28,603 bases of DNA, from contig NW_021833525.1 in the NCBI RefSeq assembly GCF_006345805.1, forward strand, positions 1 to 28,603, written 5' to 3'. A program made the translations under genes and the position numbers. Position 1 is the stretch's first letter. Every line of letters begins with the position of its first letter. This document shows positions 1-28,558 of this stretch, piece by piece. Under the pieces are notes generated by a model. That model was not told the DNA's origin and made no database searches. It saw only the letters and a list, made by a program, of their open reading frames with translations. The DNA is from Octopus sinensis (lineage: Eukaryota).

Positions 1-1028
1 AGGACCATCATGGTTTCTTGTTCTCTTGTTCTAAAGGTTCTAAGAATCCATCCAGCCAGCCGTCTACATTTCATTGCCAGTTTAGCAACATGTACATGAA
101 AGGTCGCGTCATCATTCATGTGAATACCCAGGTCACGCACTGATTGTGCTCTGGGATTGCAATCCCTCCGGGTCCAGTGTATTCATTGGGTATTGCATTC
201 AGTTTTGCATGCTGATAGTATAAAGCTTGAACTTTCCAGCATTGAACTGCATGCTATTCTTTTCAGCCCACTTGTATATTTCGTCCAGCTCACATTGCAG
301 GTGCTTAGTGTCTTCAGGGTTCTGTATTGCCTGTGAAACTTTTGTATCATCTGCATAACTTGTGATCGTGGCTCTCTGCGTGGCTGAGGGAATGTCTGAG
401 AGGGCCATTATGAACAGTAGTGGTCCCAAAACAGTGCCCTGCGGAACACCGCTCACTATTTGCGTGTTAATGGAAGTGGCCACATTGGCTGCTATCACCT
501 GACTTCTATTCTTCAGAAAGTCATGAAGCCATTCTCCCAATTTTCCAACTATGCCAAGATCACGCAGTTTGTGACATATCATTCCATGATCGACCTTATC
601 AAAGGCCTTTGCAAAGTCGAGATATATGACTTCCATATTTGAGTGGTTGAGCAGTTGTTTCAGCACCCAGTCATAGTGTTGTAGGAGCTGAGTTAAGCAG
701 CTTCTTCCTGGTCGGAAACCATGTTGGGTGTCAGGCAGCAAGTCATTTTCTTCAAGGAAGATGATTAGTTTCCTTCTGACTATTCGTTCCATGCCTTGCT
801 GATGTGTGAGGCTAGAGAGATAGGTCTGTAGTTCTTGGCCTCCGCTCTGCTACCTCCTTTATGAATAGGGCATATTTTACCTTCCTTCAGTTTTCTTGGA
901 AGTTTGCCAGTTGCAAGGAAGCTCTGAAAGAGAGACCGCAGTGGCCTTGCTAGGACCCTCTTACATACTTTTAGAAGGATTGCTGGGAATCCATCGGGGC
1001 CAGTAGCTGAGTTTGTTTTCATCTCATC
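1..1028 (-). pseudogene. Fragment of non-LTR retrotransposon ORF2 (reverse transcriptase), CR1/L2-like clade; frameshifted, cut at its 5' side by a (TA)n tract, runs off the window edge
   Basis: Minus-strand translations give SATGPDG, PIHKGGSR..KNYRPISL, QHGFRPGRSCLTQLL, IYLDFAKAFDKVDH, SGVPQGTVLGPLLF, YADDT and, after further shifts, SVRDLGIH..TF..HV. Frameshifts near 790 and 140-225. Confidence 0.93.
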
Positions 1029-1073
1029 TATATATATATATATTATATATATATACATGTATATATATTATAT

Positions 1074-2669: not shown

Positions 2670-3290
2670 CTTTAGAGCGTTGAACAGAATGCTTCGCAAT
2701 GTTTGTTCCGACGAAGCTGGCAGAATCGTTAACACGTCGGGTAAAATGCTTTGCGGCATTTCGTCTGTCTACACGTTCTGAGTACAAATTCTGCCGAGGT
2801 CAACTTTGCCGTTTATCCTTTCGGGGCCAATAAAATAAGTACCAAATGATTATAACAACTGATATAATCGACTTACTCCTTCTATAAAATTGCTAGCTCC
2901 GTCCTAAAATTTGAAACTAATAGTTGTCCTGAAAGTCTGAGTTCAAATTCTGCTGATGTCAACTTTGCTTTTATTCTTCCGGGATCGATAATAAAATACC
3001 AATCCAAGAGGGGAAATTGCTGGAATTTTTAAAAATTATTTTAACTCATGTTATTTTCCCAGAAATCTTTTGTCACACGTCTGTGACCTCTTGTTTGTGA
3101 GCAGTAAAGAAATAAGAATCGTTAGCACGACGGGCAAAATGTTTAGTGACATTCCGTCCGTCTTTTTGTTCTGAGGTCAAATGCCGTCAGGGTCGGTCGA
3201 TAAAATAAGTACCAGTTGAAACTGGTGTTGATTTATCGACTTAACCCCTTCCTCGAAATTAGTCGTCCTGTGTTAATATTTGAAACAATC
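2670..3290 (+). mobile_element. Cluster of 3-4 decayed or partial copies of tRNA-derived SINE family B
   Basis: Repeated GCTGGCAGAATCGTTA..GGGYAAAATGC..TTCTGAGTTCAAATT..GAGGTCRACTTTGC..GATAAAATAAGTACC, matching copies at 3991-4227 and 20062-20425. Confidence 0.8.
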
Positions 3291-3967: not shown

Positions 3968-4618
3968 GGTACAGCCGTGGCTGTGTGGTAAGGCGGTGAG
4001 CTGAGCTGGCAGAAACGTTAGCACACCGGGCGAAATGCTTAGCGGTATTTTGTCTGTCTTTATGTTCTGAGTTCAAATTCCGCCGAGGTCGACTTTGCCT
4101 TTCATCCTTTCGGGGGCGATAAATTAAGTACCAGTTTCGTACTGGGGTCGATGTAATCGATTTAATCCCTTCATCTGCCTTTGTTTGTTCCCTCTATGTT
4201 TAGCCCCTTGTGGGCAATAAAGAAATGTGAAGTTTGCTTCCAAACCACATGGTTTCGGAATCAGTCCCACTGCGTGGCGCCTTGAGAAAATGTCTTCTAT
4301 AATAGCCTCGATCCGACCAAAGCCTTGTGACTGGATTTGGTAGACGGAAACTGAAAGAAGCCCGTTGTAACATAAATATGAGTCTGTCTGTCTGTCTGTC
4401 TTTGTGTAAATGTTTGTCTCCCACCACCGCTTGAAAACCGGTGTTGGTGAGTTTACGTCCTTGTAATTTAGCAATTTGGCAAAAGAGAGCGATAAAATAA
4501 GTACCAGGCTTTACAAAAAAAAAACAGTACTGGAGTTGATGAGTTCGACTAAAATTGTTCGTGTTACCCCAGCATGGCCACAGTCTAATGACTGAAGCAA
4601 GTATAAGATAAAAGATAT
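3968..4618 (+). mobile_element. tRNA-derived SINE family A, interrupted by a family B SINE; includes an internal microsatellite and 3' module
   Basis: Head GTGGCTGTGTGGTAA (A box) at 3968-3990 resumes at ~4228 with GAAGTTTGCTTCC..AGTCCCACTGCGTGGC..CTTGAG. The 3' module ..CCAGCATGGCCACAGTCTAATGACTGAA..GATAAAAGATA recurs at 18180-18402. Confidence 0.75.
3991..4227 (+). mobile_element. tRNA-derived SINE family B, full length, nested in SINE A
   Basis: GGCGGTGAGCTG..GCAGAAACGTTAGC head, B box GAGTTCAAATTCC, tail CCCCTTGTGGGCAATAAAGAAAT. Confidence 0.85.
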
Positions 4619-6446: not shown

Positions 6447-6620
6447 TAGCCACTACACATTCTTTATTTTCCCTCCTTGTTTCTTTCTGTGTTCCTTTCT
6501 GTGGAAGAGCGTAGGCTCGAAACGTTAAAGACTTTTCACTTCCCGAGCGTTATACTAATACATCTGTTTTTTGTCTACACCACCTGTCTTCGACTTTTGT
6601 TTTTCTTGTGAATTCTGCCT
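6447..6620 (+). mobile_element. Short non-coding Penelope-like repeat (family HH-A) carrying a minimal hammerhead motif
   Basis: Homologous inverted copy at 8452-8621; ends in (TA)n. Confidence 0.65.
6495..6530 (+). ncRNA. Minimal type I hammerhead-like motif (variant core)
   Basis: CTTT-CTGTGGA-A-GAGC-GTAG-GCTC-GAAA-C-GTT-AAAG: stem I CTTT/AAAG, stem II GAGC/GCTC, palindromic ACGT helix III. Core has T at conserved A6. Confidence 0.55.
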
Positions 6621-6680
<60 letters not shown>

Positions 6681-7714
6681 ATATATATGTACTTATATAC
6701 ATACGCGCATATATATATTTGTAAGAAGTTGGTGATTCACTATGTTACTATTAAGTTACTCTCTCGACGCTATACTCTAAAATATACTTTTGAGTACTTT
6801 ATCTAACGATTGTTAAAACTAAGACGTGTATAGCTTGCCCCCACCTCTGTCGGGTACTAACTACGAACTGAAAAAAAATTCCCAGAAAGCAAAAGAAAAC
6901 AAAAGCCTAAAAATTAAGTGACTTCCACTCATTCACTCCACAAAAAGCATCACTACTACAATAAAAGTTGTATATAAAACGCCAGACAGGAAAACCTCAA
7001 AGTGTTACAGGAACAAGCGTTTTTTTTTTGCGATTATAACAGAAAAGCCACTCCTGTAGTTAATAAGCTTGGCTTCAGAACAAACACCCATGCACAAATT
7101 ATATGAATTAAACATCTGTATACTTACATACACACGCACTCATTCTCCAAATTACTATCAGATAATATCATACAAACATAAAAAGAACCAAGCCCTAACA
7201 TTTGTAACATGATAACCAACGAGGTATAAAGGTAAGTGCAACAAACGAAATCCGAAATATAAAAATTACTTCGTCGTGAAATTTAAATATTTGAAATAAC
7301 AGATGATTTAGCATTGTAATAACTTAAGTTTTACAGAGTATGAAAACACGATTGTTGGGGGCTCAGTATTCTGAGAGCTGAAAGATGATTGTCATTAGCT
7401 AATGAGCTAATTTTGCACTCATTGTTCAGTTTGGATCACTTGCTCGAATCGATATGTCGGTGATTGATGATTAAATGGGGATAACATTGGCACGTTTAAC
7501 AGGAATACACTTCTTCGCTCGTGTTAGAAATTCTTGTGAAATTGAATTTTAATAAAATTTATAGAATAATGTTAATAACCAGTGACTTAAAATTAGCTAA
7601 CAGCAAGCTCCATTGATGGCATTATTATGACAGTTCATTTTTTTTGTTTTGTTTTGGGATACACTACGCTGTTGGAATATGCAAATATTTTCCAAGAAAC
7701 AGACAACAGTTACG

Positions 7715-7960
7715 ATCTTAGGATGAGTAAAGAAGATATTTTTGAAAATTTTCCAGATTTACAGTGGGCAGAAAAATTTCTCGTAGTCTCCAATAAAACT
7801 TTAAAGGAATTGGGGATTCCCCTGTGCCTGAACGAGAAGGGATGCATATGATGAATGAATCTCCCCCTTGAGGTCATTTACAGTGCGCCCTGTGTAGTGT
7901 TTTGAGAATGTCATCGGATGGAGCAAGAGTTGCTCTATAGACCTCAACCTAGGTAAAGCA
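7715..7960 (+). pseudogene. Possible decayed Helitron RepHel fragment
   Basis: Translation RMSKEDIF..LQWAEKFLVVSNKTLKELGIP..LPLEVIY resembles the MSEDI..KTL..LG(L/I)P..E..Y region upstream of Helitron helicases. In-frame stops present; weak similarity by eye only. Confidence 0.3.
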
Positions 7961-8451
7961 GAATCTATGCTGTAGAAAAGTAATTTCGTTACCATAGTTG
8001 CATGTTGATGTTTGGAGTAAACTAGCGTAGATGAAGCCTTTTTTTTTTCGTTCGCAGTATGCGATGTCAAGTGATATTAGGTACTTAATTTCATTCCGTA
8101 AAATTAGCTGTTAATACCATTCCATAAAATTCATTGAAATGTTAATTTCTCTAGAATTTTAACAGAAATCAACGAACGCTATTCTTATTCATCACAGTAG
8201 AGTTACTCTATACCCAGCGGTGGAATCCTCAGCCACTTGCACGTTAACTTGAAGAGCAGGTTGTTCCGAATATGATTTTTGCTTCTGTGAAATTTGAAGT
8301 AAACCGATTGTGAATGAAAGTGTTTATTTAAATACACACACACACACACACACACACACCACACACACACACACACCCACACACACCACACACACACGTA
8401 ATATATAGATATGTGTGAGTGAGTATATGTATGTATATATATATATAATAT

Positions 8452-8621
8452 ATAGGAGAGTTTACGAAAAACAACAAAAGACGAAGACAGGTGGTGTACA
8501 AAACAAATAGATGTATTAGTATAACGCTCAGAATAGAAAAAGTCTTTTACGTTTCGAGCCTATGCTCTTCTACAGAAAGGGACACAGAAAACAAGGAGAG
8601 AAAAAATGTGCCTAGTTGGCT
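8452..8621 (-). mobile_element. Second HH-A repeat copy with minimal hammerhead motif at 8544-8579
   Basis: Minus strand CTTT-CTGTAGA-A-GAGC-ATAG-GCTC-GAAA-C-GTA-AAAG, then GAGCGTTATACTAATACATC..CACCACCTGTCTTCG as in 6447-6620; (TA)n on both sides. Confidence 0.65.
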
Positions 8622-8841
8622 ATATATATATATATATATATATATATAGATATATATATAATATATTATATATATACATACATATATGCGTAAAATGAAG
8701 AACGGTGTCGAGTGAAAATTCTGTGAATAATAATAATAATAATTATTATCTGTAAACTTATTATTTATAATATATATATACATACATATATACAACATAC
8801 ATACATACACACACACACATATGTATATATGTATGTGTGTG

Positions 8842-9415: not shown

Positions 9416-9463
<48 letters not shown>

Positions 9464-9963
9464 TATATATATATATATATAATATATATATATATATTAT
9501 ATATATATATATATACATATGTATATATATATTATATATATATATATATATATGTAATATATATACATATGTTATATAATATATATATGTATATATATAT
9601 ATACATATGTATATATAAATATATATATACAATATAAAATATAGAATATATATATACATATGTATATATAAATATATATAATAAATATATATATATATAT
9701 ATATATATCAATAAATATATATATATATATATATAATGATCAATTAGTCATTTAGGGTAGCAAAAAATTCAATAGAAATTTATCGCTACCAGCGGCTAGT
9801 GGAAAGAGAAAATAGTCAAAGACTAATATATAAATATAACAATTTAGGAGTGACCTTAACAGGCCATTCGTCCACCAAAAGAGCAGCCATAACTCACACG
9901 ACCGCCAAGTAGTAGTAAGATCTAAATTAGGTGAAAATTTAAAACCATTTACCCTATTTCATC

Positions 9964-10063
9964 TTTTTAGACGATGCATCGTTTTGTGTTATAATATGAT
10001 TTAATTAGCTTAATTAAATTAAATTAAGCCAATCTACCATAGGTCACACTTCATCAGTAAAAA
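9964..10063 (-). ncRNA. Type I hammerhead ribozyme motif, left arm (G12 reads as A)
   Basis: Minus strand TTTTTA-CTGATGA-A-GTGT...ACAC-AAAA-CGATGCATCG-TC-TAAAAA: 6-bp stem I, GTC cleavage triplet, 12-nt palindrome ACGATGCATCGT. Confidence 0.75.
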
Positions 10064-10563
10064 CCTGGAGAGACAAATATACACGAGGCGTCTGTATCGA
10101 TGCCTCCGAATATCTGTCCTTAAAATTTTCAAGACCGACGTATTCGCGCCAAACTTATCAGCAAGTAAATATAACCTGCCGATTCAATCTCAGAATTAAT
10201 TCAAAAATTATCAATTAGTCATGTCATTTAGGGTAGCAAAAAATTCAATAGAAAATTTAATCGCTACCACGGCCTGGTGGACGAATGGCCTGTTAAGGTC
10301 ACTCCTAAATTGTTATATTTATATATTTAGTCCTTTGACTATTTTCTCTTTTCCACTAGGCCGCTGGTAGAGATAAATTTCTATTGAATTTTTTGCTACC
10401 CTAAATTGACTAATTGATAATTTTCTGAATATTCTGAGATTGAATCGGCAGGTTATATTTACTGCTGATAAGTTTGGCGCGAATACGTCGGTCTTGAAAA
10501 TTTTAAACAGATATTCCGGAGGCATCGATACAGACGCCTCGTGTCTATTTGTCTCTCCCAGGT

Positions 10564-10659
10564 TTTTACCGATGAAGTGTGACCTATGGTAGATTGGCTT
10601 AATTTAATTAATTAAGCTATTTAATCATTAATAACACAGAAACGATGCATCGTCTAAAA
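10564..10659 (+). ncRNA. Type I hammerhead ribozyme motif, right arm (U4 reads as C); predicted cleavage after 10654
   Basis: TTTTA-CCGATGA-A-GTGT...ACAC-A-GAAA-CGATGCATCG-TC-TAAAA; stem II extended by GCTTAATT/AATTAAGC. Confidence 0.75.
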
Positions 10660-10851
10660 TGATTAGGGTAAATGTTTTTTAATTTTCACCTAATTTCTGA
10701 ATTACTACTACTTGGCGGTGTGAGTTATGGCTGCTCTTTCTGGTGGACGAATGGCCTGTTAAGGTCACCTCCTAAATTGTTATATATATATACATATGTA
10801 TATATAAATATATAATATATATATATTATATATATATTATATAATATATAT

Positions 10852-10977
10852 AAGTTTTAAATAATCCAAACATGAAAACACAAAGAGAAAAACACACAAC
10901 GCGAGGACGTGGAACAAGTATAGTATTATGGACGCTCAAAAAAAAAAAAAAGAAGGAGGGTTTAACGTTTCCAGCGT
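10852..10977 (-). mobile_element. Truncated HH-B repeat, broken within hammerhead stem II
   Basis: AATCCAAAC..GAGGACGTGGAACAA.TATAGTATTA..GAAGGAGGG.TTAACGTTTC matches 26423-26566. Confidence 0.7.
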
Positions 10978-11425: not shown

Positions 11426-11851
11426 GGATCTTTTCGGGTTGAACGGCAGTTTTTAACATAATTTCTAGTACTAAAAATTTTAAACTTCGTATACTGGTAG
11501 AATTGTTTAAACCATCTTTTTTCTCTTGACTTTAATTGAGAAAATTCTATAGTTTGTAGATATTTTGTTGTTTTTTTCCTTCAATTTCTGCAATTTCAAC
11601 CAATCAAATACGTCCATTGAGTAAACAACATCTTTGCCGTATCAATATGTCTCTCGTTTAAGAAACAGATTGGTTTAATTTACATTTGTGAAGAGAAAAA
11701 GATACCTCCCCCCCCGCACACCTAACCCTAACCCTAACTAACCCTAACCCTAAAATAGATTGAAATGCAATAGATCGATACTATGGGTCAATTTATGGTG
11801 ACAATTCAAATGACAACCGCTAGAAAAACTGCCGTTCAAATCGAAAGATCC
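11426..11851. mobile_element. MITE with ~28-bp TIRs and internal (CCCTAA)n, copy 1; Merlin-like by termini and TSD
   Basis: GGATCTTTTCGGGTTGAACGGCAGTTTTT ... AAAAACTGCCGTTCAAATCGAAAGATCC; imperfect TSD GTATGTTA/GTATGTATA; colinear with 17673-18090. Confidence 0.85.
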
Positions 11852-12021: not shown

Positions 12022-12360
12022 GCTGAGACCTCCCCTTCGGTCATGACTGACCATGGGATTGCACCTAGAAAGTTACCCTCCTAGGCACAAGTCCGGGCAA
12101 GGTTGTTTATAGAAGACCAGCAGTCGCCCATACATATCGGTCTCACTTGTACACGCCACCGATGTTATTATCCAAGGGAAAGGCAAAGGGGCCGATACAG
12201 CTTGGCACCTTGTGACGTCCTCAACTCATTTCTACAGCTGAGTGAACTGGAGCAACGTGAAATAAGTGTCTTGCTCGAGAATACAACACAGAGCCCTGTC
12301 CGAGAATCGAACTCACAACCTCACGATCGTAAACTCGATGCTCTAACATTGAGCCATGCG
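12022..12360 (-). mobile_element. tRNA-derived SINE family C
   Basis: Minus-strand head TGGCTCAATGTTAGAG (A box) and GAGTTCGATTC (B box), central GAGCAAGACACTTATTTCACGTTGCTCCAG; second copy at 19730-20017. Confidence 0.85.
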
Positions 12361-12991: not shown

Positions 12992-13780
12992 GACGAGGCA
13001 TTCACACTCACCGGGCAGGTGAAATGACCTTTCCGGACTTCTTAAGAATGGCTGGCTCAAGGTATTCAGTCATACTTGAGGGTGGCCCCACCAAGTGTCA
13101 CTCGTGCCTGGAGTCAGGCCACATTAAGAAGGACTGGCCTCGGGGCCGTGGTAAGGTCCCGGAGCAGGGAAAGGTGAAGGTGCCCTCCGCTCTCCCATTG
13201 CAGGGAGAAACGGAGGAAGTCGTCAAGGTGTCGGCCTCAACGAAAAGGAAGAGAAAGGTGAACAACGGTGGTTGCTCATCAGAAGAAGTGCAGGTTGCGG
13301 GAGAGGAGGAGGACCTCCCGGGTGTGCCGACTCCCGCAACCACAAAAAGAAAAAGGAGAAAGAAGAGAAACGGGAGACGGTCGGCGGATGTCGCTGTGCC
13401 GCCGAACCCGAGGCTCCTCGGTGGGAAGTGTGCCACTGGAGCTAGAGGCTCTGTCAGTGGGGATTATGCCACTGACAGAGCAGATTGAGGCCCCTCCCCG
13501 TGAGGAAGAGGTGGAACTTTTCCTTTTCTACATCAGGGGAGGGTCTGTTGAGCTGTACTTGGACAGTCTTCTAGACCGAGAACGATATGACTCAGTCTGT
13601 ATAGACTGTTCAAGTTGGCCTCCGCAGGTGGCTGCAGAGGTCATTACCCAGGAAGAATTGATTGAGGTCAGGATGACCTGCAATAATGAGGATTTTGTGT
13701 CACTCCGTCTGGGCCTGCCAATGCAGGCTTTCCTGCAGGTGGCAGGAAACTTACTTGGAGGCTCGGACGAGGAAGATTAA
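12992..13780 (+). pseudogene. ORF1/gag-like unit 1, 5' truncated and frameshifted: zinc knuckle, K/R-rich tracts, C-terminal domain
   Basis: FPDFLRMAGSRYSVILEGGPTKCHSCLESGHIKKDW (CX2CX4HX4W), TKRKRK twice, frameshift ~13400 into LFYIRGGSVELYLD..CIDCSSWPPQVA; paralogous to unit 2. Confidence 0.75.
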
Positions 13781-14510
13781 TGAAAGGTGAATTTTTGTTT
13801 TATCTTTGAATTTTAAAATTGAACAGTGTTTTCGAGGGGTTATCGGTCGGCGGACGCCAGTGCTCCACCAATTTTTATGCATTTTTGTCGTTATCATCCT
13901 CATCACATTAATGTCTGTCCAGCCCGCAGCTACTCTGTGTACTGCCCTTGTGGCAAACTATGTGAATAAAAGTAGCTCGCTTACTGCTACTAAGCTGTCG
14001 CGTTGTTTTTCGTCGCGGTGGAAGTCACGTCGTACGTGAAAAATTGATAGGTATTGATGGGAAGAAGGTATTTGTTGTTTTGGGAGCTTAGTGAAGTCTG
14101 TTGTCCGTATGGTTATTATTTTTTCGAACATGGGTCTCCACTGAGTTCCAGACATTTCTTTGACGGTAGTCGTACTAAAAGACTCACATTTTAGTGAGAA
14201 TTGTGTGTGTTTTCGGGAGGTGTGCCACTCCGAAATTTTTTTGAAATTTCTATGACTGTGTTTATGCCCTTTCAAGTGGAGTTTTACCATAAAGGATAGG
14301 AGTACAGCCAGAGTTGGACGGAACACTATTTGTGCTGCGGAGGACTACCAGAGTAGCAGAATTATGTGTTGTGTTGCCATTTTGGACTATCTTCTTTCGC
14401 TCTTTCTTTTCTTGTCTGTCTTTCTGATCTTTTTTGAGTTTCTTTATAGACTTTCATTTGAACATTTTTATTTTTGTTTGTGGATTTTTATTTTTGTTTT
14501 GGCTATCAAC

Positions 14511-15767
14511 ATGGCAACTGTGAAATCCGCTTTGGAGTGGCAAATTCTGTCCCCCAAAGAATGGTTGAAAAATTATACGGAGAGAACGGTGGTGTTAAGG
14601 ACCTATTCCAGGGTCCTTGACACCATTAAGGTCTTCTCTGAGGAAGAAATTGAGGAGGAGTTGGCAGACTATCTGCCAACTGTTAAGTTTATCCGCAGGG
14701 ATGTGAAGTATGGAACTGTGTGTGTACTTTTTGACACTCCAGCGGAAGCTCGTGATTTTGCGAGCATGCCTTTGGAGGGGGAGAAAGTTTTGTTTCTCCC
14801 TACTTATGGGGGCAGAAAGTTGACAAGAGCCTGGGCGTGTGGGCTGCCACCCGGTATAGAGGCCGAGTGCATAGAAGACACTATACGTCGGGGCCTGGGT
14901 GGCGGTCCTGCCAGGCTCTTAAATGTAAAAATGTTGCCTGCGGTTGATTGGTCGGGTCAAAAGCAATTTTGACCCTATGGACCCAATCAGCCTATGATCT
15001 GGTTTTACCAGATTTTTTAACATTGGCCGGGTCCAGGTACCCGGTGATGGTTGAGGGACGTACCCCAAGTGTCAGCTGTGCATGGAATCGGGTCATATAA
15101 AGAACTTTGGTAGGGACCAGGCAAATGTCTTGGAACAGTTAATTGAAAAGGTGTCCCCTGCTCCCCCAGTGGAAGAAAAAATCGAGGAGGAGGTAACCTC
15201 CTCGAAAACAAAGGGGAAGAAAAGAAAGAAGGTGGGCAACAATGACTGCCCACCGATGGATCCTGAGACGGCGGAGGGGGAGGGGTGTCCTCCGAAGATG
15301 CCAGAGGAAGTCCACCCTCCTGTCGTAAAAGGAAAAAAGAAGAGAAAAAAAAGAAAAACGGGGCACTGCCGGCGACAGCATGTCCCGAAACCTCTTCGGT
15401 GGGATGTGTGCCACCGGAGGGGAGGAAGAAGATAACCTCGTCAGTGGGATGTGTGCCACCAAGCGAAGGAGTTGAGACCCCTCCCAGTGAAAGTGGTGAA
15501 GAATATATGTTCTGCTATCTCAGGGGTGGGGCTATTGACAGTTTCGTTGAGAATGATATGGATAGTCGGGTCTCTCAGGACCCGACTTGTATTGACAACC
15601 CAGAGTGGCCTTCGCAGGTGGCTGTTCTGGTGCTGGAAAGAAAGTACTGTGATGTTACAATTGACTCGTATAAAAACGAGAATTATAGAATTCTTTTTTG
15701 GAGCCTCGGTTCGCGGTTGCAGGAATGCCTGCAAGTTGCAAGAAAATTACTCGGGGAAGGGTTGTAG
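14511..15767 (+). pseudogene. ORF1/gag-like unit 2, full length with ~3 frameshifts: RRM-like N-terminus, zinc knuckle, basic tract, C-terminal domain; L1/Tx1 ORF1-like
   Basis: ATG at 14511; ERTVVLRTY..KYGTVCVLFDTPAEARDF..FLPTYGGRKLTRAWACGLPP; LPDFLTLAGSRYPVMVEG; KCQLCMESGHIKNFG; FCYLRGGAIDSFVE..CIDNPEWPSQVA; stop at 15767. Frameshifts ~14968, ~15065, ~15385. Confidence 0.78.
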
Positions 15768-16289
15768 ATATTTATCGCCTCCAATTTGTGTATAAATTGT
15801 GTTTTATAATTGTGTGGACTTTTTAGTCCAAATATATTGTATTTTAAATTGTAAGAGGGTTAATACCTCTGTATATGTGTTTTCAAAGAACAATGTTTTA
15901 GAGAAGCAGAGGGTCGGCAGGCACTTTCTGTCTTCTCCCATCTTTATCATTTTTAATTCGTAATCATTCGCTTCATCAATGTCTATGTCCAGCCCGCAAA
16001 GCTACCTTATCTATGTGCTGCCTACATGGCAAATTTAATGAATAAAAATAGCTTGCTTATGTGTCTCGTGGTTAGACGTGTTTTTTTGGCCGTGAGTCAA
16101 ACATTTTGTTGAACGTTGGATTATTTTTCTGTTGGAATTAGTTATTGCTGAACATTTTCGAACTGTTGAACATTGTTGAACTGTTAAACTTTGAAAATTT
16201 TTGTGCTTTTTCCCGGTGACGGGAGAAAGTAATTGTTTGTGTAAAGCCATTTTTGCAGGTGTGAATTGTTGAAATACTGAACTTGTTAA

Positions 16290-17672: not shown

Positions 17673-18090
17673 GGATCTTTTCGGTTTGAATGGCAGTTTT
17701 TAGTATAATTTCTAGGTAACTAAAAAATTTTAAACTTCGTATACTGGTAGAATGTGTTTATAAAACATCTTTTTCTCTTGGCTTTATTGAGAAAATTCTT
17801 TAGTTTGTAAGATATTTGTTGTTTTTTCCTTCAATTTCTGCAATTTCAACCAATCACTGACGTTCATTGAGGTAAAAAAAAACCCATTCTGTGCCGTATG
17901 AATATGTCCCTCTTTTAAGAAACAGATTGGGTTTATTTACATTTGTGAAGAAAAAAGATACCCTTCACCCCACCCCTAACCCTAACCCTAAAACAGATTG
18001 AAATGCAATAGATCGATACTAGGGTCATAATTATGGGTGACAATTTCATGACACCGCTTGAAAAATTTGCCGTTCAAACCGAAAAGATCC
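17673..18090. mobile_element. MITE copy 2 with perfect 8-bp TSD
   Basis: TIRs GGATCTTTTCGGTTTGAATGGCA / TGCCGTTCAAACCGAAAAGATCC; AGCTCACT at 17665-17672 and 18091-18098; internal (CCCTAA)3. Confidence 0.92.
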
Positions 18091-19400: not shown

Positions 19401-19562
19401 TAGTTAAGTTAATTTTTTTGGCGCAAAAAGCAAAAAGCAAGGCCATGTAGGGGGGACATGGAGTTATGTACCGGGAGGGTGTTCATGCAAAGAGTTCAGG
19501 CCATTTCTGGTCGAGAGAGACTTTGAACCGAGCAGTCGTCGGCATCTTCACTATCTCGTCCG
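19401..19562 (-). mobile_element. 3' end of a CR1/L2-type LINE (ORF2 C-terminus, short 3' UTR, tail)
   Basis: Minus strand DEIVKMPTTARFKVSLDQKWPELFA* (stop 19483-19485) fits the LPxEVV..FKxxLD C-terminal motif; followed by a short UTR and A-rich tail. Confidence 0.7.
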
Positions 19563-20017
19563 ATACAGTTTGTTACTAGTGACGTCACAACTCATTTCTA
19601 CAGCTGAGTGAACTGGAGGTACGTGAATTAAAGTACCTTGCTCAAGAACACAACACACAGTCCGGTAATCGAATATACATACCTTATTTATTTCCCAGGT
19701 GGCATTTTGTTTAGACCATTATATATATTGTGAATGATCATGGGATTGCACCTAAAAAGTTCCCCTCCGAGGCACAGGTCCGAGCAAGGTTGTTTATGGA
19801 AGACCAGCAGTCGCCCATGAATACCGGCCTCTCCTCTCCACACCACTGATGTTTACCCAAGGACAAGGTAAAGGTCGATACAGCTTGGTACTAGTGACGT
19901 CGCAACTCATTTCTACAGCTGAGTGAACTGGAGGTACGTGAAGTAAAGTACCTTGCTCAAGAACACAACACACAGTCTGGGAATCGAACTCACTGCGTCA
20001 TGATTATGAGCCTGACG
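19561..20017 (-). mobile_element. SINE family C copy (19730-20017) with partial duplication (19561-19675)
   Basis: Matches 12022-12360; CAACTCATTTCTACAGCTGAGTGAACTGGAG occurs twice. Confidence 0.85.
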
Positions 20018-20061: not shown

Positions 20062-20425
20062 TGGTTTTCAATTTTTAACACAAGGCCAGCCAGTTTGGGG
20101 CAGGGGACCAAGTCGATTACATCGAACCCAGTTCTCAATTGGTACTTATTTTATCAAACCCCGAAAAGATGAAAGGCAAAGTCTACATCGGTAGAATTTG
20201 AACTCAACGTAAAGACGGACAAAATATCCTTTTCTACTCTAAGCACAAGGACCGAAATTTTCGGGGAGGAGGCCAGTCGATTAGTAACTGGTACTTAATT
20301 TATCGACCCCGAAAGGATGAAAGGCAAAGTCGACCTCGGCGGAATTTGAACTTAGAACGTAATGACAGACGAAATCCTGCAAAGCATTTCGCTCGGTGTG
20401 CTACCGTTTCTGCCAGCTCACCGCC
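20062..20425 (-). mobile_element. Two tandem SINE family B copies
   Basis: Reverse complement of GGCGGTGAGCTGGCAGAAAC..GTTCAAATTCCGCCGAGGTCGACTTTGCCTTTCATC at 20223-20425; partial copy at 20062-20222. Confidence 0.85.
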
Positions 20426-24167: not shown

Positions 24168-24472
24168 ATATTGTTATATTTCGGAATGATCATTTTGCCA
24201 GTTTAGCCAATAAAAACACACGCACTATATATTTGGTGTTACTTTGCTTCAGTGTTATTTATTTTTTACATTAATCTTAATTCTTTCGTCACACTCCTGT
24301 GACCGCATCAGTGGTCCTTTGTTTTCTTCTTTCTTATTTGTGTCTCTCCTTACTAACCGTCGGCCATTTTGTATTTATTGGCTAAACTGGCAAAATGACC
24401 ATTCCGAAATATAACAATATCTGTTTCAACACACGACTTCACATAAAAAATCTTGCACAACAAATATATAAA
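24168..24472. mobile_element. Small element with 47-bp inverted repeats and an internal degenerate hammerhead-like core
   Basis: 24168-24214 versus 24374-24420 (one mismatch). Minus strand 24311-24284 reads CTGATGC-G-GTCACA-GGAG-TGTGAC-GAAA; (TA)n flanks. Confidence 0.65.
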
Positions 24473-26214: not shown

Positions 26215-26422
26215 GTGTGTGGTGTGTATATGTATATATATATATATGTGGTGTGTGTATATATGTATATATATGTGTGTGTGTATATGTATATATATTG
26301 GTGTGGTGTGTGTGTATGTTATATATATGTGTGTGTTGTGGTATATATATATATATGTGTGTGTGTGTGTATATGTATATATGTGTGTGTGTGTGTGTAT
26401 ATGTATATATATATGTGTATAT

Positions 26423-26566
26423 AAAGTTAATCCAAACTTGAAAGCACAAAAAACACAACAACACGAGGACGTGGAACAAATATAGTATTATTGGATGCTC
26501 AGAAAAGAAGGAGGGCTTAACGTTTCGAGCGGAGCTCTTCATCGGAAACATAGAAGAAGGAAAGAT
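26423..26566 (-). mobile_element. HH-B repeat with minimal hammerhead motif at 26515-26549 (degenerate relative at ~24921-25008)
   Basis: Minus strand GTTT-CCGATGA-A-GAGC-TCC-GCTC-GAAA-C-GTT-AAGC; homologous to 10852-10977. Confidence 0.68.
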
Positions 26567-26571
26567 ATATA

Positions 26572-28202
26572 CAGTTGCGGCCAAAATGTTCAGAACGGCA
26601 TGGTTTTTGTCAGAAAAGTACGTATAAGTTTTTATCAAAGTTGTTTTATATTCTATAATTTTCACAGACAATAAATACAATATTAATTGGTATTGTCTTA
26701 GATTTTGGTGTAATTTGACAGGATAATACAAAAGGTATGGATGATTTAGTGATTTACTGCAAAACCCATGGTGGCCAAAATGATCAGAACGGTTGAAAAA
26801 ATAACAAAATAATCAAAAAGTGACAGAGAATGCTGGAATTATTTCATATTTAGTGTGAAGCCCTTTAGCTTCAATCAAAGTTTGACATTTTCGACTGCAT
26901 GGGGAAATTAAATTTTCATTTTCTTGCTGGGTGATCTTATTCCATTCTTCCTGAAGGGCATTCCATAATTGCTCGGTTGTTTTTAGGATTTCTGGCTTTC
27001 AAACGTTCTCCTAGAATATTCCACACATTTTCAATAGGATTGAGGTCTGGGCTTTGAGCAGGCCAATCCATAACAATAACCTTTTCAGCCTTGAGAAAGT
27101 TCATGACCACCTTAGCCTTGTGACATGGGGCATTGTCCTGCATGAATATGGGTGGTCGCTTAGTTGAATTTCTCAGCACAGGCAAGACATGATCTTTTAC
27201 AAGTTGTTTATAAACTCCTGCATTTACCTTTCCATGTAATCGTACCAAAGGGCCCACACCATCTCCAAATATCATCCCCCAAACCATGACACTTCCTCCA
27301 CCGGATTTAACACTAGTCTTAAGGCATTTAGGTGACAATTTTTCACCTGCTTTTCGACGAACGTACCTTTTCTCATCTGAGCCAAATAACATAAACTTAG
27401 ATTCATCACTGAAATGCACCGTTTGCCATTTTTCTTGAGACCACAACACATGTTCGGTTGCAAAGGTAAGACGACACATTTTATTCTTGGAGCTGATCAG
27501 TGGCTTCACTGCAGGTGCTCTTGCTTTTAGGTCATGTTCAACTAAAGGACGAGACACAGTTTTTCGAGATAAAGTTTTCTTCAGTACAATGCTCTTTTCC
27601 CGAAAAACAGCAACAGCAGTTTTAAATCTGTCCTTTTTAACCAACTGTACCATAGCACGATCTTTTCTTTTGGTGGTTTTTCTTGGCCTACCTATAGACT
27701 TTCTTGCTTCACACGAACCACAATCATCGTAGACCTTAAGAATACCGTGAACAACACTTTTTGACTTGTTAACAATCTTTGCAATAGATCTAATACTTAA
27801 ATTATCCTTCTTTCGAAGCTTAATAATCTGCTGACGAATTGGTAACGGAGTAAGTGGCATTATATTAACAAAGTACACTGCAGATATTCTTACTAATGTT
27901 TAGTAAATGAACCATCACGTAAACAAATTCAAAACATTAGAGTTCGACGGTTAAACATACTAAAACATGGAGTAAAACCAACCGTTCTGATCCTTTTGGC
28001 CGCCATGGGTTTTGCAGTAAATCAGTAAATCATTCATAACTTTTGTATTATCCTCTCAAATTACACCAAAATCTCAGACAATAACAAATGATATCGTATT
28101 TATTGTCTGTGAAAATTATAGAATATAAAACAACTTTACTAAAAACTTATACCTACTTTTCTGACGAAAACAATGCTGTTCTGAACATTTTGGCCGCAAC
28201 TG
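26572..28202 (-). mobile_element. Tc1-family DNA transposon, IR/DR type, 1631 bp
   Basis: TA TSD at 26570-26571 and 28203-28204; CAGTTG termini; 224-bp TIRs at 26572-26795 and 27979-28202, each with two GGCCAAAA.G.TCAGAAC direct repeats. Confidence 0.97.
26937..27860 (-). CDS. Tc1 transposase (DD34E) with one C-terminal frameshift
   Basis: ATG at 27860; paired-like HTH, GRPRKT, FSDESKF, MQDNAPCH, SPDLNPIENVW with 34 residues between D and E. Removing one A in the run at 26980-26984 restores PKTTEQLWNALQEEWNKI..EAKGLHTKY. Confidence 0.93.
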   Translation of the reverse strand: MPLTPLPIRQQIIKLRKKDNLSIRSIAKIVNKSKSVVHGILKVYDDCGSCEARKSIGRPRKTTKRKDRAMVQLVKKDRFKTAVAVFREKSIVLKKTLSRKTVSRPLVEHDLKARAPAVKPLISSKNKMCRLTFATEHVLWSQEKWQTVHFSDESKFMLFGSDEKRYVRRKAGEKLSPKCLKTSVKSGGGSVMVWGMIFGDGVGPLVRLHGKVNAGVYKQLVKDHVLPVLRNSTKRPPIFMQDNAPCHKAKVVMNFLKAEKVIVMDWPAQSPDLNPIENVWNILGERLKARNPKNNRAIMECPSGRME

Positions 28203-28558
28203 TATGTGTATATATATATGTATATGTGTATATATATATATATGTATATGTGTTTATATATATGTATATGTATATATATATATGTATATATACTCAGAAA
28301 TTCGGATGGTTTTATATTTACAGATATTTATTTGTATATTACATGTTTTTATACATCATATAACTTATATCATAGATCATATATTAGCGCTTTCTCCCAT
28401 TCTAGTGGGGTTTTCCAATCCAACTAAGTTCCTGTGAAAAGGTTTAGACCATTTTACAGTGTTATTGAGTGTGTAGTGGTGGGGAGGGATATAAGATAGT
28501 ACAAGAGGGTGATGAATGCTAAAGGGATAAAAAGAAGTGTGTGAATGGGGAGAAAGTG

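What the first reader, a model, noticed from the sequence alone, without database searches (positions are those of the whole stretch)
9739..10785. Hammerhead-bearing ~470-nt monomer inserted twice, back to back, in two different circular permutations: candidate circular-RNA retrozyme
Seen: each arm is one monomer plus a short terminal redundancy (periods 471 and 466). The arms start and end at different points of the monomer, have no ORF, and each carries one internal type I hammerhead. Known: non-LTR retrozymes and Penelope pLTRs use type I hammerheads, and retrozyme RNAs accumulate as circles. Inference: reverse transcription of a circle from different start points, running slightly past one turn, would give this pattern. 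This may be an undescribed cephalopod retrozyme family mobilised in trans by a Penelope-like RT.
Basis: partly seen in the sequence, partly recalled or inferred. Interest (0 to 1): 0.85.

Follow-up and report, generated by a model that had tools for sequence, protein, structure and literature searches.

The report
Octopus-type ribozyme repeat, Penelope-style inverted insertion
This is a protein-free, ribozyme-carrying jumping element, apparently from an octopus, inserted in the mirrored layout already known for Penelope-type retrotransposons; a circular RNA template is possible but the sequence does not require one.

Summary
The structure is real. Two arms (9739-10274 and 10275-10785), each about 1.1 units of a 466-471-nt repeat, are joined 5'-to-5' inside a (TA)n array. 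Each carries one type I hammerhead and no ORF. Neither hammerhead is intact as assembled, but contigs of 4 of 4 laid runs restore the CUGAUGA core, cover the whole unit and show its head-to-tail joint, so this is an abundant family. The hammerhead fits the Penelope-type consensus. Partial tandem, adjacent inverted 5'-truncated copy, a one-sided tail and a (TA)n target are all published Penelope-like-element (PLE) insertion hallmarks. The arms meet exactly at a 7/8-matching RNA stem, which favours one insertion event over two. A circle is not needed: both arms nest inside one linear 1.3-unit RNA. No circular RNA, multimer array, autonomous partner or read across the inversion was shown. Other PLE-type hammerhead elements sit in (TA)n in the same window. 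Verdict: a new, probably octopus, non-autonomous PLE/retrozyme-like family. Its value is as a footprint of PLE mobilisation on an ORF-less unit. Circular template about 30%.

The parts
9416..9738 (.). Left (TA)n target array
   Evidence: TRF 9416-9735, 165 copies of TA; element begins at about 9739
9739..10274 (-). Left arm: inverted copy, unit p85 to 466 to ~p144, 3' end at 9739; period 471; terminal redundancy about 65 nt
9739..9830 (-). One-sided 3' extension ('tail'): the left arm ends about 99 nt further along the unit than the right arm (230 versus 131 nt downstream of the cleavage site)
   Evidence: PLE tails of 30-40 bp in PMC8557442
9964..10063 (-). Type I hammerhead of the left arm: CUGAUGA at 10057-10051, G12 missing as assembled, GUC triplet at 9972-9970
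10268..10282 (.). 5'-to-5' inversion junction at 10274/10275 with a 7-of-8 overlap between the two arms
   Evidence: chance 180 of 217,156 breakpoint pairs
10275..10785 (+). Right arm: unit p1 to 466 plus about 45 nt redundancy (partial tandem); 3' end in a UA-rich patch that matches the (TA)n target over about 5 nt
10275..10740 (+). One 466-nt unit; folds better than shuffles (z -3.45; left-arm unit z -6.04; circular fold z -3.1)
   Evidence: covered in 30 of 30 bins by 4 of 4 runs, head-to-tail joint in 4 of 4
10275..10358 (+). Predicted multibranch domain closed by the stem 10275-10281 / 10352-10358, the two points at which the arms are joined
   Evidence: pair probabilities 0.68-1.0; a family variant turns the G-U of this stem into A-U (tables 5c and 7; one-sided change, few contigs)
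10563..10659 (+). Type I hammerhead of the right arm: AU-only stem I (5 bp), core 10569-10575, unpaired A at 10576, long stem II (10577-10637, G10.1-C11.1), GAAA 10639-10642, 12-nt palindromic stem III 10642-10653, cleavage after 10654
   Evidence: family T at 10570 and a palindrome-keeping G-C to A-U change in stem III in 2 contigs of run X6
10786..10852 (.). Right (TA)n target array
   Evidence: possible target duplication not established

Best explanation
One insertion of a non-autonomous Penelope-type element: an ORF-less, hammerhead-bearing 466-nt unit, like a pLTR that has become its own repeat. SHOWN: the geometry, the target, the family and its hammerhead. INFERRED: a PLE RT/GIY-YIG protein acting in trans nicked both strands of a (TA)n array. 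Each 3'-OH primed reverse transcription at an internal site of the RNA, 131 and 230 nt downstream of the hammerhead cleavage site. Each cDNA ran a little over one unit, through an uncut hammerhead. The two cDNA 3' ends then annealed through the 8-nt stem (p1-7 with p78-84) and were filled in, giving the head-to-head junction. The template needs head-to-tail continuity only. An uncleaved linear partial-tandem transcript of about 1.3 units (p1-466-p144) contains both arms, and I rate it more likely than a circle, about 60:40 within this model.
For: Layout equals the published PLE layout: partial tandem, adjacent inverted 5'-truncated copy, tail at one end, (TA)n preference (PMC8557442, passages); two direct plus one inverted pLTR, head-to-head, overlap or palindrome at the junction, and trans-mobilisation by pLTR alone (PMC3846280, passages). 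The anole PLE protein cleaves and extends both strands at AT-rich DNA, starts at two internal RNA sites and uses unprocessed RNA (PMC11167929). The hammerhead fits the PLE consensus (U-rich, CUGANGAH, G...C, GAAAN, palindrome, NUH, AU-rich; PMC4209133 text and supplement), and that paper notes opposite-strand hammerhead pairs 100-700 bp apart. Junction overlap is rare by chance and sits on a well-predicted stem. Both arms carry the same allele at 13 of 13 other family-variable sites checked. Family is abundant: 1231, 577, 468 and 52 contigs laid, with a head-to-tail joint in 4 of 4 runs. O. vulgaris has 190 PLE families covering 6.83% of the genome, 31 recently active (PMC13282606). Other PLE-type hammerhead elements end in (TA)n in this window.
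Against: No autonomous partner found: six short motifs gave no relevant hit in the Naiad/Chlamys/Hydra sequence file, and by eye the Octopus Naiad ends share only chance-level words. The tail is about 99 nt, not 30-40. In the anole system priming is at a non-homologous site, whereas the right end here has about 5 nt of match to (TA)n. No strand-change joint was listed in the 4 runs, so the inversion is known from the assembly only (contigs drop rare forms). No target-site duplication established. Fixed ends could not be tested: no start or end piles, and 148 loose ends not shown.
Confidence: 0.7

Rival explanations
1. One reading: a true non-LTR retrozyme. Multimer transcripts self-cleave, the 466-nt monomer is circularised, and a PLE RT copies the circle slightly more than once from two start points. 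This overlaps the best explanation and differs only in the template.
For: Unit is closed head-to-tail in 4 of 4 runs (X2 joint depth 7713). Family core is intact and stem III covaries in one variant. Both arms cross the cleavage site. Circular fold z -3.1. Coral, mussel and axolotl retrozymes accumulate circles (PMC7229834). More-than-unit copying of circles was proposed for PLEs (PMC4209133).
Against: This locus has no two same-strand hammerheads, so it cannot release a monomer itself. The joint does not tell long arrays from single partial tandems. Arm lengths of 1.1 units follow from the start sites and the position of the joining stem, so they are not independent evidence. Stem I is AU-only, PLE-type hammerheads cleave poorly in vitro, and the anole PLE uses uncleaved RNA. 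Only 57% of the circle is paired.
Confidence: 0.3
2. Fold-back (self-priming): one cDNA ran 1.1 units, folded back on its own copy of the 8-nt stem and copied itself to make the inverted arm.
For: Gives exactly this junction. Self-priming was proposed for Penelope inverted junctions (PMC3846280). Arms share family-variable alleles.
Against: The left arm runs about 99 nt past the point where the right arm ends, which needs a further template jump. No variant private to both arms was seen: at 4 of 4 sites where the right arm departs from the commonest family base, the left arm has the family base, though sequencing error blurs this.
Confidence: 0.13
3. Two separate insertions, or 5'-truncated ends of an autonomous PLE whose pLTR region is internally repeated.
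For: PLE-type hammerhead; most PLE copies are truncated. Relatives in run X2 share the 3' half of the hammerhead but differ upstream for 94-138 nt, and could be an autonomous parent.
Against: No target DNA between the arms and a rare junction overlap. The unit closes on itself without an ORF; 0, 0, 2 and 14% of laid contigs run on into unlike sequence.
Confidence: 0.1
4. Assembly or library artefact (fold-back long read or chimera).
For: Indel-rich differences between arms, unlike other repeats in the window. No strand-change joint in the laid runs. Both flanks are (TA)n, where assemblies can mis-join.
Against: Unique flanks are not mirrored. The arms end at different unit positions. Each arm continues correctly along the family unit. 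The layout is the one biology predicts for PLEs.
Confidence: 0.07

Closest known systems
Metazoan non-LTR retrozymes (Cervera and de la Pena 2020, PMC7229834; Li, Clavereau and Pollet 2026, bioRxiv 10.64898/2026.07.22.740005)
   Same: ORF-less, AT-rich unit of a few hundred nt with one type I hammerhead; head-to-tail continuity; abundant; occurs in a mollusc (mussel units 350-390 nt); proposed to be pLTR-derived and PLE-mobilised.
   Different: Unit is 466-471 nt (above the 170-400 nt of the 2020 paper, inside the 51-972 bp of the 2026 preprint). Hammerhead is PLE-type with a ~60-nt stem II, not the canonical 4-bp helix II. No array of two or more units or circular RNA shown. Head-to-head inverted insertion was not described in the parts I read.
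EN+ Penelope-like elements and their pLTR insertions (Penelope/Poseidon, Neptune, Naiad, Hydra; PMC3846280, PMC8557442, PMC11167929)
   Same: Partial tandem, adjacent inverted 5'-truncated copy, overlap at the junction, one-sided tail, (TA)n target, hammerhead upstream of the RT start region.
   Different: No RT/GIY-YIG ORF; tail about 99 nt; no homology found to the Octopus Naiads, which lack canonical hammerheads.
PLE minimal hammerheads (Cervera and de la Pena 2014, PMC4209133)
   Same: Unpaired base between positions 9 and 10.1, G10.1-C11.1, short helix I, palindromic helix III, U-rich and AU-rich flanks; opposite-strand pairs 100-700 bp apart.
   Different: Helix III is 4 bp with a tetraloop (12-nt palindrome) and helix II is much longer than 7-8 bp.
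Non-autonomous Chlamys elements such as MRC1 (PMC8557442)
   Same: ORF-less PLE derivatives that form pLTRs and head-to-tail insertions.
   Different: Green-algal; no canonical hammerhead in that clade.
L1 twin priming (recalled, no call)
   Same: Two target ends prime two cDNAs joined 5'-to-5' by microhomology.
   Different: No poly(A); the second start site does not coincide with the first cDNA's end; arms overlap almost fully in sequence.

Membership tests
Non-LTR retrozyme | Type I hammerhead in each unit | tested here: met
   One per unit; core lesions in both assembled copies, but family contigs have U4 in 4 of 4 runs. No Rfam hit.
Non-LTR retrozyme | Small, AT-rich, non-coding unit | tested here: met
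   466-471 nt, GC about 0.30-0.35, no ORF.
Non-LTR retrozyme | Tandem arrays with two or more consecutive hammerhead units | tested here: inconclusive
   Not at this locus. Head-to-tail joint in 4 of 4 runs, but contigs are too short to show two full units. No genome held.
Non-LTR retrozyme | Self-cleavage of the transcript | not testable with these tools
   Only folding and one compensatory variant.
Non-LTR retrozyme | Accumulation as circular RNA | not testable with these tools
   All 24 listed runs are contigs, which cannot show ends, strand or circularity.
Non-LTR retrozyme | Target-site duplication longer than 4 bp when present | tested here: inconclusive
   29-nt exact match of the right flank in the left array (9597, 9650) versus at most 23 nt in 12 other arrays, but alignment score 100-101 is no better than controls, up to 105.
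Autonomous Penelope-like element | ORF with PLE RT and GIY-YIG endonuclease | tested here: not met
   No ORF in the element. The RT fragment at 199-849 is 9 kb away and LINE-like.
Non-autonomous PLE derivative | Partial tandem forming a terminal direct repeat | tested here: met
   Both arms.
Non-autonomous PLE derivative | Inverted 5'-truncated copy adjacent at the 5' end, head-to-head | tested here: met
   seen in the assembly only, no strand-change joint.
Non-autonomous PLE derivative | 3' tail on one arm only | tested here: met
   About 99 nt, longer than the 30-40 bp in print.
Non-autonomous PLE derivative | (TA)n or AT-rich target | tested here: met
   Octopus Naiads also list (TA)n.
Non-autonomous PLE derivative | PLE-type hammerhead consensus | tested here: met
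   Matches the consensus in PMC4209133 except for the A at 10638 of the right arm; a relative in X2 has C directly before GAAA.
Non-autonomous PLE derivative | Sequence homology to the pLTR of an autonomous PLE in the same host | tested here: inconclusive
   No match to the Naiad set by six motifs and by eye; Repbase, Dfam and the 190 O. vulgaris PLE families could not be searched.
Plant LTR retrozyme | Type III hammerhead in LTRs, with PBS and PPT | tested here: not met
   The hammerhead is type I, stem I open; PBS and PPT were not searched.

The most novel reading that the evidence does not exclude
A very abundant octopus retrozyme with an extended-stem-II hammerhead accumulates as a ~466-nt circular RNA. 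This locus records a PLE RT copying that circle from both target ends and joining the two cDNAs at a conserved RNA stem. That would be a direct footprint tying animal retrozyme circles to PLE machinery, and a tractable system for explaining how PLE partial tandems, tails and inversions arise. The UA-rich loop at one start site might act as a built-in target-pairing patch for (TA)n.
Probability: 0.25. Interest if true: 0.7.

Novelty: new member of a known kind. Interest (0 to 1): 0.42.

Why it matters
That animal retrozymes are mobilised by Penelope-like elements is so far argued from shared hammerheads, co-occurrence and pLTR phylogeny. An ORF-less retrozyme-like unit carrying the full PLE insertion signature is more direct evidence. 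An abundant family with a fixed unit lets one map RT start sites and inversion points genome-wide, and so test circle against linear template, an open point in PLE biology. I found no report of cephalopod retrozymes in the held library. The family may still sit unnamed or as a SINE or Penelope entry in repeat libraries I could not see. The circle itself, and the idea of more-than-unit copying, would not be new in kind.

Tried and rejected
No genome held, so copies could not be mapped. Rfam: no hammerhead match in the window (105 weak hits listed, none a hammerhead) or in 9700-10820. Exact-pattern scans found 0 hits in metagenome and viral contigs. A gapped hammerhead pattern gave 12 metagenome loci; 0 of 12 resemble the unit by BLAST and none forms both stems I and II, so they are chance. 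No RNA holder listed among the 24 runs; X6 is only guessed to be RNA, so nothing is said on expression. Only 4 of 24 runs were laid, and only one unit (10275-10740), not the whole locus. Contig depth peaks at 10355-10418 in all four runs and falls after it in three, which would fit a common 3' end near p144, but contig depth cannot rank parts and I do not count it. Summed depth is not a copy number. Target duplication not established. Short shared words with Octopus Naiad 3' UTRs judged chance (by eye). A 68-aa frame at 7645-7848 tested as a host exon found no homologue, so genic context is unknown. Four look-ups of earlier findings returned nothing. Unseen supplements that may bear on novelty: PMC7229834 (too large), file 1 of PMC4209133, the 2026 bioRxiv tables, and the O. 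vulgaris library on Zenodo.

Full report
1. Observation. The right arm (10275-10785, + strand) is one 466-nt unit plus about 45 nt. The left arm (9739-10274, - strand) is one 471-nt unit plus about 65 nt. They align at 414 of 455 columns. With 10275 as p1, the right arm reads p1-466-p45 and the left arm p85-466-p144. In hammerhead sense the arms are joined 5'-to-5', with 3' ends running out into (TA)n arrays. There is no coding frame of note. The host is probably an octopus: the best named relative of an RT fragment in the window is an Octopus protein at 70% identity, with other named hits near 50%.

2. The hammerhead. Rfam does not detect it. A descriptor scan of both strands gave 3 hits in the window, the right-arm site having the longest stems. 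It has a 5-bp AU stem I, the core at 10569-10575, an unpaired A, a 61-nt stem II opening with G-C, GAAA, a perfect 12-nt palindrome as stem III and GUC, with cleavage after 10654. Neither assembled copy is intact: the right has C for U4 and the left lacks G12. In family contigs 10570 is T in about 100% of depth in 4 of 4 runs. Two contigs of X6 swap a stem III G-C for A-U and keep the palindrome, and a relative in X2 has C directly before GAAA. These traits match the PLE hammerhead consensus of PMC4209133 (parts 1-2 of 4 and one supplement file read) better than the canonical retrozyme motif. Activity is untested.

3. The family. No genome is held. Twenty of 24 listed runs, labelled as four organisms, hold 7-19% of the sampled words. 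I laid 4 of them on one unit: 1231, 577, 468 and 52 contigs fit, all 30 bins are covered in each run, and summed depths reach 1e5 to 1e6 in the three large runs. This shows an abundant family but is not a copy number. A joint from the unit's end back to its start appears in 4 of 4 runs (3, 1, 2 and 1 contigs; depth 7713 in X2). So the unit is closed on itself in the family, without an ORF between. No strand-change joint and no start or end pile was listed, and 148 loose ends were not shown. The inversion and fixed ends are therefore neither confirmed nor refuted. X6 is only guessed to be RNA.

4. The junction and ends. The arms abut with no target DNA between them, at a 7-of-8 inverted match that 180 of 217,156 breakpoint pairs offer. 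The two sites form the stem p1-7 / p78-84 of the RNA, with pair probabilities 0.68-1.0. The right 3' end falls in a UA-rich loop that matches (TA)n over about 5 nt. The left 3' end lies 99 nt further on (131 versus 230 nt past the cleavage site). A target duplication is not established. The arms differ by 10 substitutions and 20 internal indels, unlike two control repeat pairs (17 and 0; 10 and 0), which suggests base-call error and a young age (inference). At 4 of 4 sites where the right arm departs from the commonest family base, the left arm has the family base; at 13 other variable sites both arms agree.

5. Mechanism. PLE insertions are described as partial tandems with an inverted 5'-truncated copy at the 5' end, a tail at one end, and often (TA)n targets (PMC8557442, passages, one section and parts of the supplement). 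[quoted passage not shown] The purified anole PLE protein cuts and extends both strands at AT-rich DNA, starts at two internal RNA sites that define the tail, and uses uncleaved RNA (PMC11167929, parts 1-2 of 4). This locus fits: two primers, two internal start sites, two cDNAs joined at a stem. I give that 0.7. The steps are inferred from geometry; none was observed.

6. Circle or line. They need only a head-to-tail template. One linear RNA of 1.3 units (p1-466-p144) contains both arms, and the 1.1-unit lengths follow from where the start sites and the stem lie. The locus has no two same-strand hammerheads and cannot excise a monomer itself. For the circle: the closed unit, the conserved core, stable folding (z -3.45, -6.04, circular -3.1), and precedent in coral, mussel and axolotl (PMC7229834, parts 2-4 of 6; PMC7761336, passages). 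I put a circular template at 0.3. Fold-back priming (0.13), truncated autonomous PLE or two events (0.10) and artefact (0.07) remain. The circle rival overlaps the best model, so the figures do not sum to one.

7. Comparison and novelty. It works like a non-autonomous PLE and resembles non-LTR retrozymes, which a 2026 preprint derives from pLTRs (parts 1-3 of 5). Membership in retrozymes is incomplete: arrays, cleavage and circles are unshown. It is not an autonomous PLE. No partner was found among the published Octopus Naiads. PLEs are plentiful in O. vulgaris (PMC13282606, parts 1-2 of 3 and supplement search; PMC8967140, passages). Four searches found no paper describing cephalopod retrozymes (listings only for papers not named above), but repeat libraries were out of reach. 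The same 28.6-kb window holds three more PLE-type minimal hammerheads in microsatellite-flanked elements and a fourth cut copy, so hammerhead elements in (TA)n look ordinary in this genome.

8. Verdict. Real, correctly described, and best filed as a new member of a known kind. The useful point is an ORF-less retrozyme-like unit bearing the complete PLE insertion signature, with the inversion placed on an RNA stem. Interest 0.42; 0.7 if the circle is shown.

Noticed in passing
window 6447-6620 (+), about 8415-8622 (-), 26420-26560 (-), 10862-10976 (-): Small (~180-nt) elements with PLE-type minimal hammerheads (cores at 6499, 8575, 26545; the 10862-10976 copy is cut inside the motif), ending in (TA)n about 93-111 nt past the motif. 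Two sequence types, unrelated to the 466-nt unit. The cut copy's 3' end abuts the (TA)n on the right of the finding.
   Followed up: partly
window about 24270-24311 (-): Another hammerhead-like core with a 6-bp stem II and one core mismatch, inside a short element with inverted ends between (TA)n arrays.
   Followed up: no
runs X1 and X2, loose ends before 10619 and 10639: Relatives that share the 3' half of the hammerhead and what follows but differ upstream (median 94-138 nt in X2): a sister family or a possible autonomous parent.
   Followed up: no
window 26569-28205: Tc1-like DNA transposon: 227-nt terminal inverted repeats (93%) and a 320-aa transposase frame at 26937-27899 with DDE_3 and HTH_Tnp_Tc3_2.
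   Followed up: partly
window 199-1067 (-): Frameshifted LINE-type reverse transcriptase fragment (RVT_1); best named hit an Octopus protein.
   Followed up: partly
window 12994-14050 and 14511-16060 (+): Two diverged neighbouring copies (66-70% DNA identity in parts) of a broken ORF with a CCHC knuckle and lysine-rich tract, like a retroelement ORF1; no Pfam hit, Atlas hits are unnamed eukaryotic clusters with a weak RRM lead.
   Followed up: partly
window 11721-11753, within repeat 11426-11851 (second copy 17673-18090): Interstitial telomere-like (CCCTAA)n run inside a dispersed repeat.
   Followed up: no
window 2715-3003, 4002-4169, 20104-20420; 12044-12327, 19561-20004: Several copies of two SINE-like dispersed repeats; the SINE label is recalled, not tested.
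   Followed up: no
window 9739-10785: Any read-through transcript would fold into a ~430-bp duplex, a possible RNA-editing or small-RNA substrate; transcription not shown (inference).
   Followed up: no
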